From the IMG/VR virus record IMGVR_UViG_2799113093_000010: 64,000 bases of DNA, one strand, 5' to 3'. Below, one piece after another: positions 32,321 to 36,369 of this stretch. The translations under genes and the position numbers were made by a program. The notes below the pieces were generated by a model. That model was given only the letters and a program-made list of their open reading frames with translations, had not been told where the DNA came from and ran no database searches. Every line of letters begins with the position of its first letter. Within the stretch, counting starts at the first letter, position 1. This DNA comes from a virus (taxonomy: Duplodnaviria; Heunggongvirae; Uroviricota; Caudoviricetes).

Positions 32321-33042
32321 CCGAACTCGGTGGGCACGTACACCTGGGTTTGGGAGCGTATGAAATCCGACTCGCGGGGCGGCTGGTCGGACTCAGTAAC
32401 CCGGATCAGGAGCCGCCAACCGCGGGTCTTGGCTGCAGTCGCGGTGTGGATGTTCCACCAGTCCCACGACAGCCACTGGCCGGGCGCGGCGTCCAGGAAG
32501 TCGTGATCGTCCAGGTGCTCGGCGGCGTTCACCGCCTCCGACATCTCGCGGTACAGGCCCGAGTCCTCGCCGTGCTCCAGCCCGATGATGAACGGGCAGC
32601 GCATGAACCGGGTTGGGCAGTCGTTACCGACATGGATGGTGTGGAACCGCGGCGCATACCCCCGAGACTCCAGGTCCGCTTGAATCGACAGCGACGGCGC
32701 ACCCGTGTTCGAGGCGCTCGCCGACATCAGGCTTGCCTCGTGGTCCGTATCGCCGACCCGGCGTGGCACGCCGTCGGTGTGCCAGCCCGGGATCGCAGGG
32801 ATGAACCCGGGCAGCAGCATCGACACCTTCGTATCGACATGCACGTGCTTGTGGTCGCCGACGATCGGTGCCTGCTCCAGACAGCGGCGCACCGCGGGTC
32901 CCCCGAACAGAAGCGCGTTCTCCAGGCTCGCGCGCTCCAAGTTCGGGGTCGCCGGGATGCACATCAGGTCGCGGAACCCGAACACGTCGGTAACCGACGG
33001 TCCGAGTTCCACCGGCGTGACGTTGAACGTGTACGACTTCAC
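32314..33042 (-). CDS. putative Fe(II)/2-oxoglutarate dioxygenase (PhyH-like), paralog A (about 242 aa)
   Basis: GTG at 33042 overlaps the Ro60 stop (GTGA). Motifs GWHTDG (HxD), distal FHTIHVGN, and an Arg about 9 aa later. Paralogous to 42247..42954. Confidence 0.45.
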   Translation of the reverse strand: MKSYTFNVTPVELGPSVTDVFGFRDLMCIPATPNLERASLENALLFGGPAVRRCLEQAPIVGDHKHVHVDTKVSMLLPGFIPAIPGWHTDGVPRRVGDTDHEASLMSASASNTGAPSLSIQADLESRGYAPRFHTIHVGNDCPTRFMRCPFIIGLEHGEDSGLYREMSEAVNAAEHLDDHDFLDAAPGQWLSWDWWNIHTATAAKTRGWRLLIRVTESDQPPRESDFIRSQTQVYVPTEFGW

Positions 33043-34766
33043 AGGTCGCCGCGGGAGAAATCGGCCAGCAGCTGCGGCACTGCGGAGTCGAACCCGGACA
33101 CGTCGAGCTGCCCCGGGTCGGTCGGATCCGCGATGCTGTTGCCGGTCGCGGTCATCGCGACAACCACCAGGCGTGCATCGATGCCCATGGTGTCCCGGTA
33201 CTCGCGGAGCGCCTGGTGCGGATGCATCGACCCGTAGAACGTCTCGTTGTCGGTGTAGACGTGGAACGTGTCGATCTCGATCCGGTTCTTGCGCGCCCAG
33301 ATCATCGGCAGCGCGCAGTCGGTGTTCCCGAAGTCCAGCTCGCCGGTGTAGCGGCACACGTCGTCGAGACGCCGGCGCGGGGTGATGTCCAGCGGCGCCA
33401 CCGCCGTCGCATACCCGCGGAAGTGGCCGGTGCGCGAATGCACGTAGCTGCCAGGCCCGGCGGTGAAGCCGATGATCTGGTGATCCGTCTCGACGTTGGC
33501 AGTGACCAGCGCCAGGGCGGCTGCGGCCTCGCGGCACGACACCGGCAGCCCGGACACCGACCGCGTCATCGACCCGGACACGTCCAGAGCCAGCAGCGTC
33601 CGCTTACCGGCAGGCTCGACCGCGCCATAGGCGTTGTAGAACGCGGCATCGAGCGCGTCGACGATCCGCGCCACCGGCATCCAAGTGGAGTCGCCGCGCG
33701 CCGAGTGGCCCGACGCGTAGGTGCGCAGCGCCACCAGCGCGTTGATCGGATGCACGCGGCCCTTCCGCAGCCGCTCGGAGTCCTGCAGCTGCGCGGCGAC
33801 CTTGTTCCCGATGGTGCCGGCGAGGACACCGAGGCGAGTCAGGCGCGGCAGCTGCCGCATCAGCGCAGTCTGGGGCAGACCGTGCTCGATCAGCGCCTCC
33901 CACACCTCCGGCTTGGTGAGCGCGGCGTCGGGCAGCGCCTCCCACGGAAGAGCGTTGCCACGCTTGATGATCTTCACCCAGTCCCGCGCCGTGGTGGCAC
34001 GCTGCGCGTCCTCGAAGTCGGCGATGATCGCCAGCGGGTGGCCGTCGCTCAGCTCGATATCGGGCAGCTTGGGGCGTGCGGTGTTCCGGTCGCCGGCCTT
34101 CAGCTCGTCCGGGTTCAGCTCGCGGACCTTGTCGGCGTAGTCGTTGAGGCCCTTGCCGACAGCCCAGTTGAACGCGAGGCGCCGCGCCGGGTCCTTCGTG
34201 ACGGGCGAGGAGAGCCGCAGCAGGTCGCGGTGCATCCATCCCTCGCGCTGCCGGTACTTGACCAGCTGGTAGGCGACACGGTCGACGCCCTTGTCCAGAT
34301 ACCAGGAGCCGACCGCACGCTTCATCGCCGGACCCCAGCCACGGAACTGCTCCATGTACTTCACGAACAGGTACAGGTGGGTGCCGGTGCGCGCCACGCT
34401 GGGCAGAGCGGCAGCCGCGGCGCGGCGTCCCTCCACGTCATCGGAGGCTGCGGCGACCGCGAGCGCGAACAGCGCCGGGTTCTGCTTCGGCGCCCGGCCA
34501 GCGACCGACACCTCCACGATGTGCTGCACCAGCCGCACCGGATCCGCGGCGGCGGCACGGAACACCACCTCGGCGTTCTCCCGAGTCAGCTCGGCCGCGT
34601 TGGTGTAGTAGGTGCCGCCGTCGGTACCCAGCGTCAGGAACCGGTGCAGCCTCACCTCGTCGGACACCGCGAACGCGAACCCGCCGGCCGCGTTCTTCAC
34701 CTGCCGGGGGTCCGCCTTCACCGTCTGCGCGGTGCGGCGGGTGCTGATCGTCGAAAGAACGTCCAT
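33039..34766 (-). CDS. rsr: Ro60 ortholog (Rsr): TROVE domain plus C-terminal vWA domain (about 575 aa)
   Basis: TROVE-like N-terminal region (MDVLSTISTRRTAQTVKADPRQVKNAAGGFAFAV..., HLYLFVKYMEQFRGWG). vWA MIDAS motif LALDVSGSMT. RBS CAGAGGAGA before the ATG at 34766. The 115-aa upstream extension in the track ORF overlaps the ncRNA array and is rejected. Confidence 0.8.
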   Translation of the reverse strand: MDVLSTISTRRTAQTVKADPRQVKNAAGGFAFAVSDEVRLHRFLTLGTDGGTYYTNAAELTRENAEVVFRAAAADPVRLVQHIVEVSVAGRAPKQNPALFALAVAAASDDVEGRRAAAAALPSVARTGTHLYLFVKYMEQFRGWGPAMKRAVGSWYLDKGVDRVAYQLVKYRQREGWMHRDLLRLSSPVTKDPARRLAFNWAVGKGLNDYADKVRELNPDELKAGDRNTARPKLPDIELSDGHPLAIIADFEDAQRATTARDWVKIIKRGNALPWEALPDAALTKPEVWEALIEHGLPQTALMRQLPRLTRLGVLAGTIGNKVAAQLQDSERLRKGRVHPINALVALRTYASGHSARGDSTWMPVARIVDALDAAFYNAYGAVEPAGKRTLLALDVSGSMTRSVSGLPVSCREAAAALALVTANVETDHQIIGFTAGPGSYVHSRTGHFRGYATAVAPLDITPRRRLDDVCRYTGELDFGNTDCALPMIWARKNRIEIDTFHVYTDNETFYGSMHPHQALREYRDTMGIDARLVVVAMTATGNSIADPTDPGQLDVSGFDSAVPQLLADFSRGDL

Positions 34767-34793
34767 CGGTGTCTCCTCTGAAATGCGGGTGGG

Positions 34794-34869
34794 GGCAGCG
34801 CGGGCGTGTGAATGACAGCCGGGTTGGTTCCGTTCGAAGGGGATAACCGACCGTCGTCCTGCTCGCGCC
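34794..34869 (-). ncRNA. truncated Y-RNA-like unit (YrlB-like; Ro-binding helix motifs without tRNA-like domain)
   Basis: Carries the GAGCAGGACGACGGUCGGUUAUCC and CACACGCCC motifs shared with the three units upstream. It lacks a T-arm and D-arm. It lies immediately 5' of the rsr RBS. Confidence 0.35.
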
Positions 34870-34902
34870 ACCCCCAACTGGGGCTGTGGCTCGTGTCGCG
34901 AG

Positions 34903-35047
34903 GCGGTGTGGGCGTGTGTTTGCCGACCGGTGTTTTTAGGCGTCCTAGGCCGCTGGACGACGGGGCCGCTATGCAGTCCCGGCAGGATTCGAACCTGCGT
35001 ATCCCGCTCCCGATGCGATAACCGATTGAGCGTCCTGCTCACACCGC
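34903..35047 (-). ncRNA. Y-RNA-like tRNA-mimic ncRNA, unit 3 (YrlA-like)
   Basis: Read on the minus strand it shows, in order: a 5' helix strand with GAGCAGGACGC...CGGUUAUC; a T-arm GCAGG-UUCGAAU-CCUGC; a capped acceptor-like hairpin; a D-arm GUCC-AGCGGCCUA-GGAC; and a 3' strand (CACCGGUCGG...CACACGCCCACACCGC) complementary to the 5' end. Confidence 0.5.
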
Positions 35048-35063
35048 TACGCGACGTTTGTGG

Positions 35064-35205
35064 GGTTGATGCGGGCGTGTGTGTGCTGACCGGGGTTAAG
35101 TGCTCTGCCAACTGAGCTACAGCCGCGAAGCGACTGACGGGACTCGAACCCGCGACCTCTCCATTAGAAGTGGATAACCGACCTGCGTCCTGCTCGCATC
35201 AAACC
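35064..35205 (-). ncRNA. Y-RNA-like tRNA-mimic ncRNA, unit 2 (YrlA-like)
   Basis: T-arm CGCGGG-UUCGAGU-CCCG. Acceptor-like 7-bp hairpin CAGUCGC-UUCG-GCGGCUG with a UUCG tetraloop. D-arm UAGCUCAGUUGGCAGAGCA. Its termini pair (GGUUUGAUGCG / CGCAUCAACC). It carries the conserved GCAGGUCGGUUAUCC motif. Confidence 0.55.
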
Positions 35206-35222
35206 GCTATTGAGTTGTCTGA

Positions 35223-35358
35223 GGATGGCGTGGGCGTGTGGAGTGCTGACCGGTGTTTGATCATTGCTCTGCCAGTTGAGCTATACCCCGCGAGCGGGGT
35301 AGCGGGATTCGAACCTGCGACGGTGATAACCGACCTGCGTTCTGCTCACGCCATCCGC
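35223..35358 (-). ncRNA. Y-RNA-like tRNA-mimic ncRNA, unit 1 (YrlA-like)
   Basis: T-arm GCAGG-UUCGAAU-CCCGC. Perfect 7-bp acceptor-like hairpin UACCCCG-CUCG-CGGGGUA. D-arm UAGCUCAACUGGCAGAGCA. Terminal helix GGAUGGCGUG / CACGCCAUCC. GGUCGG / CCGGUC pairs with G-U wobbles next to GUUAUC. Confidence 0.55.
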
Positions 35359-35442: not shown

Positions 35443-35470
35443 ACTGTATGGATTTACAGCCTGGTGGCAA
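35443..35470 (-). promoter_or_regulatory. candidate sigma-A-type promoter for the Y-RNA/rsr transcript (TTGCCA-N16-TACAGT on the minus strand)
   Basis: The -35 element TTGCCA is the reverse complement of 35465-35470. The -10 element TACAGT is the reverse complement of 35443-35448. It lies in a 175-bp noncoding stretch upstream of unit 1. Confidence 0.3.
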
Positions 35471-35551: not shown

Positions 35552-35986
35552 TCACCCGATCGGCTTCGCGGCCTGGATACGGCGTTGCTGACGGCGCCGG
35601 TTGTACGCCTGCACGTCCGCCCACCGATACCGCGGCCCGTCCGGCGTCTCCACCGCCAGCACCCCGTCCTTGCCCTGCCGGGCGCGGCTGTTCCACTGGC
35701 GCACCGCCGCGGCCGACAGGTGCACCAGCGCCGCCACGTCCGTAGCGGTGAGCAGGTCGTCGTCGTCCGGCTGGTTCACCATCGGCACCATCCAGTAGCG
35801 ACCCTGGTCCTGCCACTGCCGATCCAGATCGGCCACCGCCGACAACGCTTCGTGATCGGGATCCAGATACGCCAGATACTCGACCAGGATCTCCGCGGTC
35901 CGCCGATAGGAGCGTGCGATCCGGCGAGCCTCATCGACCGGCGAATCCCCCGGGTAGCGGTACACCTTCGATTCATCGCTCAAGAC
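35552..35986 (-). CDS. helix-turn-helix DNA-binding protein (about 144 aa)
   Basis: GTG start at 35986. HTH-like segment LLTATDVAALVHLSAAAVRQW. The upstream part of the track ORF is R/H-rich junk. Confidence 0.45.
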   Translation of the reverse strand, partial: VLSDESKVYRYPGDSPVDEARRIARSYRRTAEILVEYLAYLDPDHEALSAVADLDRQWQDQGRYWMVPMVNQPDDDDLLTATDVAALVHLSAAAVRQWNSRARQGKDGVLAVETPDGPRYRWADVQAYNRRRQQRRIQAAKPIG

Positions 35987-36369
35987 AGGCGCTCCTTCCC
36001 GCCGTAGGCGAGCAGCAGACCGATGCCGGGTAACCCGTCTCGAACCACGTCGGCGGTGTAGGTGCCGTCGATGGCCTTGTCGCACCACGCGGACACGGTG
36101 ACCAACGTGACGGTTCGCCGCGCCGGGTACACCGCCCACGTCTCCTGCGGGAACTGAAGTGCGCCCGGCAGCTGGGCCGGCGCGACCTCGAACGGCTTGT
36201 CACCGAGCCATTCCTTGACATCGAGCAGAGGTGCCTCGCCGGCCAGCGCGGTGGCGAGCCGGTAGAACTTCTCGGCTGTTTCGCGCTCCAGGTCCTCCAG
36301 GTCCTCCAGGTTGGCGGTCACGGGAGTAGCCGCCACAGCGTTGGCTGGCATTTCTGGCAGACGCCCCAT
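35980..36369 (-). CDS. hypothetical protein (about 129 aa)
   Basis: Start MGRLPEMPANA...; acidic LEDLEDLERE segment. Confidence 0.4.
   Translation of the reverse strand: MGRLPEMPANAVAATPVTANLEDLEDLERETAEKFYRLATALAGEAPLLDVKEWLGDKPFEVAPAQLPGALQFPQETWAVYPARRTVTLVTVSAWCDKAIDGTYTADVVRDGLPGIGLLLAYGGKERLS

What the first reader, a model, noticed from the sequence alone, without database searches (positions are those of the whole stretch)
34794..35358. Shared sequence blocks in the Y-RNA-like modules resemble the metazoan Y-RNA Ro-binding helix, plus a truncated fourth unit
All four units carry GAGCAGGACG-N3-5-GGUCGGUUAUC on the 5' strand and CACCGGUC...CACACGCCC on the 3' strand. GGUCGG can pair with CCGGUC using two G-U wobbles, next to GUUAUC. 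This is reminiscent of the conserved GGUCCGA ... GUUAUC stem of vertebrate Y RNAs that Ro60 contacts. Unit 4 (34794-34869) keeps only this helix and lacks the T-arm and D-arm, like a YrlB-type short Y RNA. The arrangement suggests module duplication followed by decay, and gives four potential Ro-binding sites.
Basis: seen in the sequence. Interest (0 to 1): 0.55.

Follow-up and report, generated by a model that had tools for sequence, protein, structure and literature searches.

The report
Four phage Y RNAs beside Ro60
The repeated blocks are real and belong to four Y RNA-like genes just upstream of a phage Ro60 gene, a kind of locus already described in mycobacteria and their phages.

Summary
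Window 34790-35356 (minus strand) holds four Y RNA-like units directly upstream of a Ro60 gene (TROVE + Ro60 vWA domains, 33039-34766, minus strand) in a temperate mycobacteriophage or prophage.

The repeated blocks are real. Each occurs four times, only here, always on this strand and in alternating order.

I compared 73 distinct homologous units from 39 phage and bacterial loci. Both comparative tests support one fold:
- **P1:** a terminal stem made of unit-specific flanks plus GAGC:GCCC from the two blocks.
- **Internal loop:** an asymmetric loop, 5' AGGA(C) opposite 3' N2-4-ACAC.
- **P2:**

So the proposed helix is confirmed by covariation. By position, however, it matches the "upper" or anticodon-like stem. 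The counterpart of the metazoan GGUCCGA and bacterial GNCGAAN0-1G Ro motif is the other block, GAGC(A/C)GGA, lying in P1 and the loop.

Unit 4 is not a decayed copy. A 59-69 nt hairpin unit without a T-arm sits last before Ro60 in every phage-type locus examined.

Verdict: new members of the known YrlA/YrlB Y RNA class (Chen et al. 2014). Two details look new: a conserved 3' ACACGCCC block, and a lineage-wide C-to-A change in the motif.

The parts
35223..35356 (-). Unit 1, YrlA-type Y RNA-like gene. P1 5' strand GGAUGGCGUGAGC 35344-35356. 5' loop AGAAC 35339-35343. P2 5' strand GCAGGUCGG 35330-35338. T arm 35302-35318. Acceptor-like stem 35284-35301. D arm 35266-35281. P2 3' strand CCGGUCAGC 35245-35253. 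3' loop ACUCCACAC 35236-35244. P1 3' strand GCCCACGCCAUCC 35223-35235.
   Evidence: Rfam YrlA sub-threshold hit at 35240-35347, 34.3 bits, E = 2.1e-5. MFE z = -3.67.
35063..35205 (-). Unit 2, the canonical YrlA-type unit and closest to the experimentally studied M. smegmatis YrlA. P1 5' strand UUGAUGCGAGC 35192-35202. 5' loop AGGAC 35187-35191. P2 5' strand 35178-35186. Variable-arm-like hairpin UCCACUUCUAAUGGA 35160-35174. T arm 35137-35153. 7-bp acceptor-like stem 35120-35136. D arm 35102-35117. P2 3' strand 35085-35093. 3' loop ACACACAC 35077-35084. P1 3' strand GCCCGCAUCAA 35066-35076.
   Evidence: (YrlA 39.2 bits, E = 7.8e-7). 88% identical to L004_1945.
34903..35047 (-). Unit 3, YrlA-type with a different D arm (UCGUCCAGCGGCCUAGGACG). 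P1 5' strand GCGGUGUGAGC 35037-35047. 5' loop AGGACG 35031-35036. P2 5' strand CUCAAUCGG 35022-35030. T arm 34982-34998. Acceptor-like stem 34961-34981. D-like arm 34938-34960. P2 3' strand CCGGUCGGC 34922-34930. 3' loop AAACACAC 34914-34921. P1 3' strand GCCCACACCGC 34903-34913.
   Evidence: (YrlA 20.5 bits, E = 0.2). 77% identical to L004_2101.
34790..34876 (-). Unit 4, short hairpin-type Y RNA-like gene with no T or D arm. P1 5' strand UGGGGGUGGCGCGAGC 34861-34876. 5' loop AGGAC 34856-34860. P2 5' strand GACGGUCGG 34847-34855. Apical part 34823-34846. P2 3' strand CCGGCUGUC 34814-34822. 3' loop AUUCACAC 34806-34813. P1 3' strand 34790-34805.
   Evidence: MFE -46.1 kcal/mol, z = -4.03. Short orthologues in the same last position in other phages. 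77% identical to L004_2413.
33039..34766 (-). Ro60 orthologue, 575 aa, with TROVE and Ro60 vWA domains. The ATG is at 34766 and a GGAG ribosome-binding site lies about 8 nt upstream. Unit 4's stem ends 23 nt before the ATG.
   Evidence: Pfam TROVE 3.7e-49 and vWA_Ro60 3.4e-60. PDB 1YVP X. laevis Ro60 5e-102 and 2NVO D. radiodurans Rsr 4e-101. Start codon checked.
35443..35470 (-). Candidate promoter TTGCCA-16-TACAGT, about 85 nt upstream of unit 1. It overlaps the perfect palindrome CTGTA-N6-TACAG (35444-35459).
   Evidence: 1 site found, 0.1 expected. The palindrome is unique in the window. It occurs once in each of 8 phage loci, upstream of the first unit.

Best explanation
The region encodes four separate Y RNA-like non-coding RNAs on the minus strand. 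They are probably transcribed from one promoter (35470-35443) together with the downstream phage Ro60 gene and then processed.

Each RNA has three parts, in this order:
1. **P1**, a terminal stem that joins its 5' and 3' ends. It is built from unit-specific complementary flanks plus GAGC:GCCC taken from the two conserved blocks, with an A.C mismatch in all four window units.
2. **An asymmetric internal loop.** The 5' side is AGGA(C), which reads CGGA in host and other phage relatives. This is the clade's version of the GNCGAAN0-1G / 'CGAA' Ro-recognition motif. The 3' side ends in the conserved ACAC.
It continues through GUUAYC into the effector module.

The effector module is a circularly permuted tRNA mimic in units 1-3 (T arm, then acceptor-like stem, then D arm). 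In unit 4 it is a plain hairpin.

**Inferred:** The phage Ro60 ring most likely binds P1 and the loop, as Ro60 binds the lower stem of vertebrate Y RNAs. P2 would act as the anticodon-stem-like spacer. The head would tether Ro60 to host tRNA-binding or RNA-decay factors such as PNPase.

**Shown here:** the sequence blocks, the covariation-supported helices, the adjacency to Ro60, and the similarity to the YrlA T and D arms.

**Not shown:** Ro binding, RNA processing and effector recruitment.
For: - **Blocks and unit order:**
- **Covariation of P1 + P2:** 73 distinct anchored homologues (alignment A1) give 89.4% paired cells against 79.2% in shuffles (0 of 500). The covariation score is 0.366 against 0.166 (0 of 500). 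Slid controls give only 24-39% paired. Eleven of 18 pairs carry double changes, for example UA:44/CG:26 and GC:33/AU:32/CG:5 in P1, and CG:21/UG:17/UA:15/GC:9 in P2.
- **Independent prediction:** RNAalifold, given no structure, recovers P1, P2, the T arm, the acceptor-like stem and the D arm in 18 canonical units (13 of 36 pairs compensatory). It recovers P1 and P2 in 14 short units (7 of 15 compensatory).
- **Energetic cost:** forcing P1 and P2 costs 0 to 4.4 kcal/mol in the window units.
- **Ro60 gene:**
- **Rfam YrlA:** partial matches to the T, acceptor-like and D arms with E = 7.8e-7, 2.1e-5 and 0.2. The model aligns its ggCgaAUG motif to GCAGAACG.
- **Link to experiment:** the published M. 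smegmatis YrlA 3' probe is complementary to ...CUCACACGCCCACAUCACC. The Rsr-bound host RNA therefore contains the 3' block and the P1 3' strand.
- **Published architecture:** phage and actinobacterial Yrl RNAs are described as a 5'-3' stem flanking a large bulge that carries CGAA, giving a stem-bulge-stem shape (PMC12135203). The vertebrate Ro60 site is the lower stem with a bulged C and an opposite bulge (PMC4726728).
Against: - No unit reaches the Rfam YrlA gathering score: 39.2, 34.3 and 20.5 bits against 69.
- The literal GNCGAAN0-1G motif is absent. The assignment of the Ro site rests on position and alignment, not on a binding test.
- The inner 4 bp of P2 (U.G, C-G, G-C, G-C) and GUUA are invariant in 71-73 of 73 units. 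That is more than a helix needs, so a protein or tertiary contact there, possibly Ro60 itself, is not excluded.
- Many of the 73 sequences are paralogues or come from closely related prophages, so the number of independent substitutions is lower than the cell counts suggest.
- Transcript ends, processing and expression are untested.
Confidence: 0.8

Rival explanations
1. One reading: GGUCGG:CCGGUC, with the adjacent GUUAUC, is the Ro60-binding helix and is homologous to the vertebrate GGUCCGA stem. That would give four Ro sites located in P2.
For: - The helix is real.
- Its inner part UCGG:CCGG, including a conserved U.G wobble, and the following GUUA are almost invariant (71-73 of 73). This suggests recognition beyond simple pairing.
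- P2 directly abuts the conserved loop, so a Ro footprint could reach into it.
Against: - Ro60 sites described so far lie in the stem formed by the RNA's 5' and 3' ends, next to a bulged C. Here that stem is P1.
- The block resembling GGUCCGA and GNCGAAN0-1G is GAGC(C/A)GGA.
- P2 matches in position the anticodon-like stem of YrlA (nt 15-27 and 83-93 in S. Typhimurium).
- GGUCGG has no bulged nucleotide.
- No metazoan Y RNA model matches at E up to 10.
- Neither GGTCCGA nor TTGACT occurs in the region.
Confidence: 0.13
2. The repeated blocks are DNA-level protein-binding sites, such as operators or iterons, with no RNA-level pairing.
For: The short conserved blocks recur at roughly 110-160 bp intervals in a non-coding stretch.
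Against: - The blocks occur on one strand only and in strict 5'-block then 3'-block order.
- The sequences flanking them differ between units yet stay complementary within each unit. Compensatory changes are seen across 73 homologues, and slid controls collapse to 24-39% paired.
- T-arm and D-arm motifs lie between the blocks.
Confidence: 0.02
3. The units are tRNA genes or decaying tRNA pseudogenes in a phage tRNA cluster, unrelated to Ro60.
For: - The T-loop and D-loop consensus sequences are present.
- The Rfam tRNA model scores 20.7 bits on 35129-35197.
- ARAGORN and GenBank call the homologous unit a tRNA-Thr in prophiGD43A-5. ARAGORN calls one a tRNA-Arg in L019.
Against: - ARAGORN finds no tRNA in the window.
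- The arm order is permuted: T arm, then closed acceptor-like stem, then D arm.
- Every unit carries the Ro-motif block and the P1/P2 frame.
- The units sit on the Ro60 strand directly upstream of Ro60 in 39 loci.
Confidence: 0.03

Closest known systems
Mycobacterium smegmatis YrlA and YrlB (Rsr-bound Y RNAs; Chen et al. 2014, PMC4201824)
   Same: - They are encoded directly 5' of the Ro60 orthologue on the same strand.
- The 5' motif block, the T arm, a 7-bp acceptor-like stem and the D arm are all shared.
- The published probes show the host RNA carries CCACUUCUAAUGG and CUCACACGCCCACAUC. These match unit 2 and the 3' block plus P1.
- Mycolicibacterium loci L025-L038 show the same P1-loop-P2 frame.
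   Different: - The window has four units rather than two.
- The motif reads GAGCAGGA, not GAGCCGGA.
- The window's short unit has no T arm. The published YrlB probe matches the 95-98 nt second unit of the Mycolicibacterium loci, which has one.
- No binding data exist for the phage RNAs.
YrlA-like RNAs of mycobacteriophages (e.g. ET08; 22 bacteriophages listed in Chen et al. 2014)
   Same: These are phage-encoded Ro60 genes with adjacent YrlA-like RNAs, found by homology search.
   Different: - The window is a temperate siphovirus-type phage or prophage (tape measure, portal, terminase and integrase genes). It is only distantly related to the deposited phages: the best hit, prophiGD43A-5, is 72.6% identical over the array.
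- I could not check whether arrays of 4-7 units, the 3' ACACGCCC block or the C-to-A variant were noted in that paper's supplements, because they are not held.
Salmonella Typhimurium YrlA (Rfam RF02553; tRNA-like domain structure PDB 6CU1)
   Same: - Both have a modular design: a Ro-binding stem and loop formed by the two ends, an anticodon-like stem, and a T/acceptor/D tRNA mimic without a free CCA end.
- Rfam aligns the T, acceptor-like and D arms.
   Different: - Scores fall far below the gathering threshold.
- The pairing of the motif block that the Rfam model imposes on these units has no covariation support here (0 double changes, 67.7% against 66.6% in shuffles).
- The mycobacterial units have an additional variable-arm-like hairpin and a conserved 3' block.
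Thermus phage phiLo Yrl1/Yrl2 with phiRo60 (PMC12135203)
   Same: - Phage Ro60 has Y RNA-like genes just upstream.
- The RNAs show a 5'-3' stem, a large bulge carrying the motif, and then a second stem.
- The authors propose that the phage hijacks host PNPase.
   Different: - The motif is CGAA there and AGGA/AGAA here.
- No tRNA-like heads are reported for phiLo.
- phiLo has two units, not four.
- The phiLo RNAs were tested by EMSA and cryo-EM; these were not.
Vertebrate Y RNAs (lower-stem Ro60 site: 7-bp helix, bulged C, 3-nt opposite bulge)
   Same: - An end-to-end stem is followed by an unpaired pyrimidine or A and an opposite-strand bulge.
- The 5' strand G-R-N-C-C/A-G-(G)-A resembles GGUCCGA.
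- The partner protein is a clear Ro60 homologue (E = 5e-102 to X. laevis Ro60).
   Different: - No sequence-model match.
- No UUGACU 3' strand.
- The loop is 4-6 nt opposite 6-9 nt, not a single bulged C.
- These are bacterial-type transcripts with tRNA-like heads.
- GUUAUC is not part of the described Ro60 site.

Membership tests
Bacterial/phage Y RNA, YrlA type (Chen et al. 2014; Rfam RF02553) | Encoded within about 4 kb of a Ro60/TROVE orthologue and on the same strand | tested here: met
   The units span 34790-35356 (minus strand). The Ro60 CDS is 33039-34766 (minus strand) and has TROVE + vWA_Ro60 domains.
Bacterial/phage Y RNA, YrlA type (Chen et al. 2014; Rfam RF02553) | GNCGAAN0-1G motif near the 5' end | tested here: inconclusive
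   The literal motif is absent. The aligned position reads GCAGAACG in unit 1 and GCAGGACG in units 2-4. Chromosomal Mycolicibacterium homologues read GCCGGAYG, so the clade as a whole deviates from the literal consensus.
Bacterial/phage Y RNA, YrlA type (Chen et al. 2014; Rfam RF02553) | tRNA-like module ordered T arm, acceptor-like stem, D arm | tested here: met
   Met for units 1-3: Rfam alignments with E = 2.1e-5, 7.8e-7 and 0.2, and an RNAalifold consensus with a covarying acceptor-like stem. Not present in unit 4.
Bacterial/phage Y RNA, YrlA type (Chen et al. 2014; Rfam RF02553) | Reaches the Rfam gathering score (69 bits) | tested here: not met
   Scores are 39.2, 34.3 and 20.5 bits. 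The same model also misses the chromosomal Mycolicibacterium loci and all the phage loci tested. The threshold therefore does not discriminate within this clade.
Bacterial/phage Y RNA, YrlA type (Chen et al. 2014; Rfam RF02553) | Bound by the Ro60 orthologue in vivo or in vitro | not testable with these tools
   This needs RIP or EMSA. Only the M. smegmatis homologue has been tested (PMC4201824).
Short Y RNA (YrlB / Yrn2 type) | A second, shorter RNA at the Ro60 locus that carries the Ro motif in a long hairpin without a full tRNA-like module | tested here: met
   Unit 4 has an 87-nt span and P1-loop-P2 plus an apical hairpin. Short units of 59-69 nt occupy the last position in every phage-type locus examined: L001-L021, L023 and the window. 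They share P1 and P2 with covariation. This is a class defined by architecture, not a sequence family. The second unit of the Mycolicibacterium loci, which the published M. smegmatis YrlB probe matches, has a T arm; unit 4 does not.
Metazoan Y RNA (Rfam Y_RNA) | Lower stem with GGUCCGA / UUGACU, a bulged C and an opposite 3-nt bulge | tested here: not met
   Neither GGTCCGA nor TTGACT occurs in the region. No metazoan Y RNA model appears among the matches at E up to 10. There is only an architectural analogy, with P1 and the loop.
tRNA | Cloverleaf detectable by ARAGORN or Rfam tRNA at threshold | tested here: not met
   ARAGORN finds 0 genes in the window. The Rfam tRNA model scores 20.7 bits against a threshold of 29.

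The most novel reading that the evidence does not exclude
The C-to-A change at position 5 of the Ro-recognition block (GAGC-A-GGA instead of GAGC-C-GGA) is found in every unit of the window and of the related M. abscessus prophage arrays. All units in bacterial genome contigs and in Sparky-type phages keep C.

This could be a specificity switch that makes the phage Ro60/Y RNA particles orthogonal to the host Rsr/YrlA system. The clade-specific 3' ACACGCCC block and the invariant UCGGUUA/CCGG would then be extra determinants. The arrays of 4-7 Y RNAs with different tRNA-like heads would let one phage Ro60 dock onto several host tRNA-handling or RNA-decay factors.
Probability: 0.12. Interest if true: 0.6.

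Novelty: new member of a known kind. Interest (0 to 1): 0.3.

Why it matters
The main value is for annotation and follow-up design.
- The Rfam YrlA model misses these RNAs at its threshold, even in mycobacterial chromosomes.
- ARAGORN calls one homologue a tRNA, and GenBank annotates it as tRNA-Thr, gene 51 of prophiGD43A-5.
- The covariation-backed P1-loop-P2 model, and the placement of the likely Ro site in P1 and the loop, give a concrete framework for mutagenesis of phage Ro60/Y RNA particles.
- It also gives a better seed for a covariance model of actinobacterial and phage Y RNAs.

Biologically, the locus adds another temperate mycobacteriophage that carries a complete Ro60 plus multi-Y-RNA cassette. 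This fits the recently proposed idea that phage Ro60 RNPs co-opt host RNA-decay enzymes (PMC12135203).

Tried and rejected
1. **Rfam at gathering threshold** on the whole window gave nothing. Only the permissive run was informative.
2. **The Rfam-model-style pairing** of the 5' block (GCAGG) with the CCGGUCAGC strand was rejected. It has 0 double changes and is no better than shuffles.
3. **A GGA:UYC mini-helix inside the loop,** seen in the unit 4 MFE fold, is not conserved. The loop 3' sides vary (ACACACAC, ACCCACAC, CUUCACAC and others).
4. **Pattern scans of viral contigs** for the A- and C-variants of the 5' block returned mostly single chance hits. With 15 specified bases the pattern is too short. 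Only three contigs had true 5-hit arrays (L051, L115, L116), two of them already held. The scans say nothing about how widespread the variants are.
5. **The Chen et al. 2014 supplements** (lists of phage hits) are not held, and two reviews are not held. I therefore could not check whether multi-unit phage arrays or the 3' block were already tabulated.
6. **The literature search for Ro-like genes in M. abscessus prophages** found nothing.
7. **I did not map the C/A switch onto Ro60 contact residues.** The A lineage is a single clade, so any clade-specific substitution would look correlated.
8. **Coordinate note:** my Ro60 query (33039-34775) carried three extra N-terminal residues. The true ATG is at 34766. 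This does not affect the results.
Full report
**What is in the sequence**

All features lie on the minus strand. GAGCAGRACG occurs four times in the 64-kb window: 35347, 35195, 35040 and 34864 (5' ends on the minus strand). Chance expectation is 0.52, and no shuffle of 100 reached four. CACACGCCC also occurs four times, at 35240, 35081, 34918 and 34810.

The two blocks alternate strictly. Each 5' block is followed by GGTTATC. Units 1-3 also contain a GGTTCGA(A/G)TCC T-loop.

- The spacer between GAGCAGGACG and GGUCGG is 2 nt in three units.
- Unit 1 reads GAGCAGAACG.
- Unit 3 has AAUCGG.
- CACCGGUC is exact only in units 1 and 3.

**Context**

The window is a temperate siphovirus-type mycobacteriophage or prophage. 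It encodes a tape measure protein, a minor tail protein, a major head protein, a portal, a large terminase and an integrase. Its best but distant relatives are M. abscessus prophages prophiGD43A-5 and prophiT37-1 and phage Sparky.

Unit 4's closing stem ends 23 nt before an ATG at 34766. That ATG opens a 575-aa Ro60 orthologue. It has TROVE (3.7e-49) and Ro60 vWA (3.4e-60) domains. It matches X. laevis Ro60 at 5e-102 and D. radiodurans Rsr at 4e-101.

ARAGORN finds no tRNA in the window. Rfam at gathering thresholds finds nothing. In the permissive run the YrlA model (RF02553) matches units 2, 1 and 3 at 39.2, 34.3 and 20.5 bits, with E = 7.8e-7, 2.1e-5 and 0.2. The matches run through the T arm, the closed acceptor-like stem and the D arm. 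No metazoan Y RNA model appears.

**Homologues**

The Ro60 protein retrieved 21 IMG/VR loci and 16 bacterial genome loci, mostly Mycolicibacterium and Mycobacterium. Three annotated phage loci were added.

The stretch upstream of nearly every Ro60 gene holds the same kind of unit:
- Bacterial contigs carry two or three units. These are one of 116-124 nt with the tRNA-like head and one of 68-98 nt, and L034 has an extra 61-nt unit.
- Phage and prophage loci carry two to seven.

The published M. smegmatis probes tie this to experiment. The YrlA 3' probe is complementary to CUCACACGCCCACAUCACC. The YrlA 5' probe is complementary to CCACUUCUAAUGG. The YrlB probe matches the second, T-arm-bearing unit of the Mycolicibacterium loci. 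The 3' block and the strand after it are therefore part of an RNA known to be bound by Rsr.

**Structure**

By eye, each unit's flanks are complementary and differ between units:
- Unit 1: GGAUGGCGUG / CACGCCAUCC
- Unit 2: UUGAUGCG / CGCAUCAA
- Unit 3: GCGGUGUG / CACACCGC
- Unit 4: GGGGGUGGCGCG / CGCGCUGCCCCC

To test this without alignment bias I cut fixed windows anchored on the blocks from 73 distinct units. The result is a gap-free alignment (A1). I then counted two helices.

P1 is five flank pairs plus G1:C9, N2:N8, G3:C7 and C4:G6 of the two blocks. It is 90.0% paired, and 6 of 9 pairs show double changes (UA:44/CG:26; UA:46/CG:18; GC:33/AU:32/CG:5).

It is 88.9% paired, and 5 of 9 pairs show double changes (GU:33/AU:22/GC:12/UA:5; CG:21/UG:17/UA:15/GC:9).

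| Measure (P1 + P2) | Observed | Shuffled | Shuffles reaching observed |
|---|---|---|---|
| Cells paired | 89.4% | 79.2% | 0 of 500 |
| Covariation score | 0.366 | 0.166 | 0 of 500 |

Sliding the 3' partners by 1-3 columns drops pairing to 24-39%.

RNAalifold, given no structure, recovers P1, P2, the T arm, the acceptor-like stem and the D arm in 18 canonical units. It recovers P1 and P2 in 14 short units. Forcing P1 and P2 on the window units costs 0-4.4 kcal/mol, and for unit 2 it yields the expected arms.

The rival pairing implied by the Rfam model's fit, 5' block with CCGGUCAGC, has no compensatory change and is no better than shuffles.

What remains unpaired is an internal loop. Its 5' side is 4-6 nt, (A/C)GGA(N). 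Its 3' side is 6-9 nt, ending in ACAC or ACAY.

Its identification as the Ro-binding stem is not supported, for these reasons:
- The vertebrate Ro60 site is the lower stem formed by the two RNA ends, with a bulged C and an opposite bulge (PMC4726728).
- Bacterial Y RNAs carry GNCGAAN0-1G near the 5' end. Chen et al. compare this to GGUCCGA.
- Phage and actinobacterial Yrl RNAs are described as a 5'-3' stem flanking a bulge with CGAA, followed by another stem (PMC12135203).
- In these units the end-to-end stem is P1.
- The block that resembles GGUCCGA is GAGC(C/A)GGA. Its GAGC is paired with GCCC, and the next nucleotide is unpaired.
- Rfam aligns its own motif to this block.

P2 sits where S. 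Typhimurium YrlA has its anticodon-like stem, nt 15-27 and 83-93.

One caveat remains. UCGG:CCGG, including the U.G wobble, and GUUA are invariant in 71-73 of 73 units. A contact there, possibly with Ro60, is not excluded.

**Unit 4 and the 'decay' idea**

In every phage-type locus the unit closest to Ro60 is a 59-69 nt hairpin without a T-loop. These short units share P1 and P2 with covariation.

Unit 4 folds at -46.1 kcal/mol with z = -4.0.

Each window unit is closer to a counterpart in another phage than to its neighbours:

| Window unit | Best counterpart | Identity |
|---|---|---|
| Unit 1 | L001_3334 | 73% |
| Unit 2 | L004_1945 | 88% |
| Unit 3 | L004_2101 | 77% |
| Unit 4 | L004_2413 | 77% |

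Identity between units within the window is only 42-69%. The unit types are therefore old and conserved. Unit 4 is a maintained short class comparable to YrlB or Yrn2, not a degraded copy.

**Mechanism**

*Shown:* four structured RNA genes with a common P1-loop-P2 frame, next to Ro60. Three carry a permuted tRNA mimic.

*Inferred:* they are co-transcribed with Ro60 from a promoter-like site, TTGCCA-16-TACAGT at 35470-35443, and then processed. Ro60 binds P1 and the loop. The heads tether Ro60 to host factors, by analogy with Rsr-Y RNA-PNPase in bacteria and the phiLo phage system.

**Novelty and score**

Y RNA-like genes next to Ro60 in mycobacteria and mycobacteriophages were described in 2014. 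These are new members of that kind.

I did not find three details described in the papers I could read:
- the conserved 3' ACACGCCC block, which pairs into P1;
- the A-for-C change at block position 5, present in all units of the window and of the M. abscessus prophage lineage and in no other lineage examined;
- arrays of up to seven units.

The 2014 paper states that only the 5' strand of the Ro-binding helix is recognisable in M. smegmatis.

These details are modest and untested. Interest is 0.3.

Noticed in passing
window 35443-35470 (minus strand); L003, L016-L021, L024: A promoter-like site TTGCCA-16-TACAGT overlaps a perfect palindrome CTGTA-N6-TACAG (35444-35459). The palindrome is unique in the window. 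It recurs once, just upstream of the first Y-like unit, in 8 other phage loci. It may be an operator controlling the Y RNA/Ro60 cassette. The M. abscessus prophage loci have a different palindrome there (GCTATAC-CGCG-GTATAGC in L001).
   Followed up: partly
window units at 35343, 35191, 35036, 34860 (block position 5); L001-L015, L023 against L003, L016-L040: Position 5 of the 5' block is A in every unit of the window and of the M. abscessus prophage lineage. It is C in every unit from bacterial genome contigs and from the Sparky-type and other phages. This is the nucleotide that follows the GAGC:GCCC pairs, the position analogous to the bulged C of vertebrate Y RNAs.
   Followed up: partly
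L001 2996-3074 (MW584167.1 gene 51); L019 1856-1933: ARAGORN calls the 5' half of the canonical Y-like unit a tRNA: tRNA-Thr(tgt) in L001, also annotated that way in GenBank, and tRNA-Arg(tct) in L019. These are probably mis-annotated YrlA-like RNAs.
   Followed up: partly
L001, L003, L004, L019, L020, L025, L033, L035: The Rfam YrlA model (RF02553) reports none of the mycobacterial or phage units at its gathering score, not even the chromosomal Mycolicibacterium ones. The family model seems not to cover this clade.
   Followed up: partly
window about 35369-35364 and 35218-35213 (minus strand); spacers in many loci: An ACAACU-like motif lies 16-26 nt upstream of the 5' block in 36 of 87 distinct spacers, including those before units 1 and 2. 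UAGCGG precedes units 1-3 in the window. These may be processing sites. Their significance was not tested.
   Followed up: no
A1 columns 30-36 and 41-44; window e.g. 35327-35333 and 35250-35253: UCGGUUA and its partner CCGG, including a U.G wobble, are invariant in 71-73 of 73 units. This is more conserved than the presumed Ro motif itself and remains unexplained. It could be a tertiary or protein contact, or the kink of the anticodon-like stem.
   Followed up: no
window 33039-35111 (minus strand) and 34812-35115 (plus strand): Mechanical ORFs run across the RNA units: a 690-aa TTG-start extension of Ro60 and two 69-aa plus-strand ORFs. They are artefacts of high G+C content. The real Ro60 start is the ATG at 34766.
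   Followed up: yes
window 35552-36139 (minus strand): The gene upstream of the Y RNA array matches a PHROG of unknown function (phrog_1969, 3.8e-23). It also matches an excisionase/transcriptional-regulator family weakly (phrog_66, 1.3e-6). It could be a regulator of the cassette.
   Followed up: no
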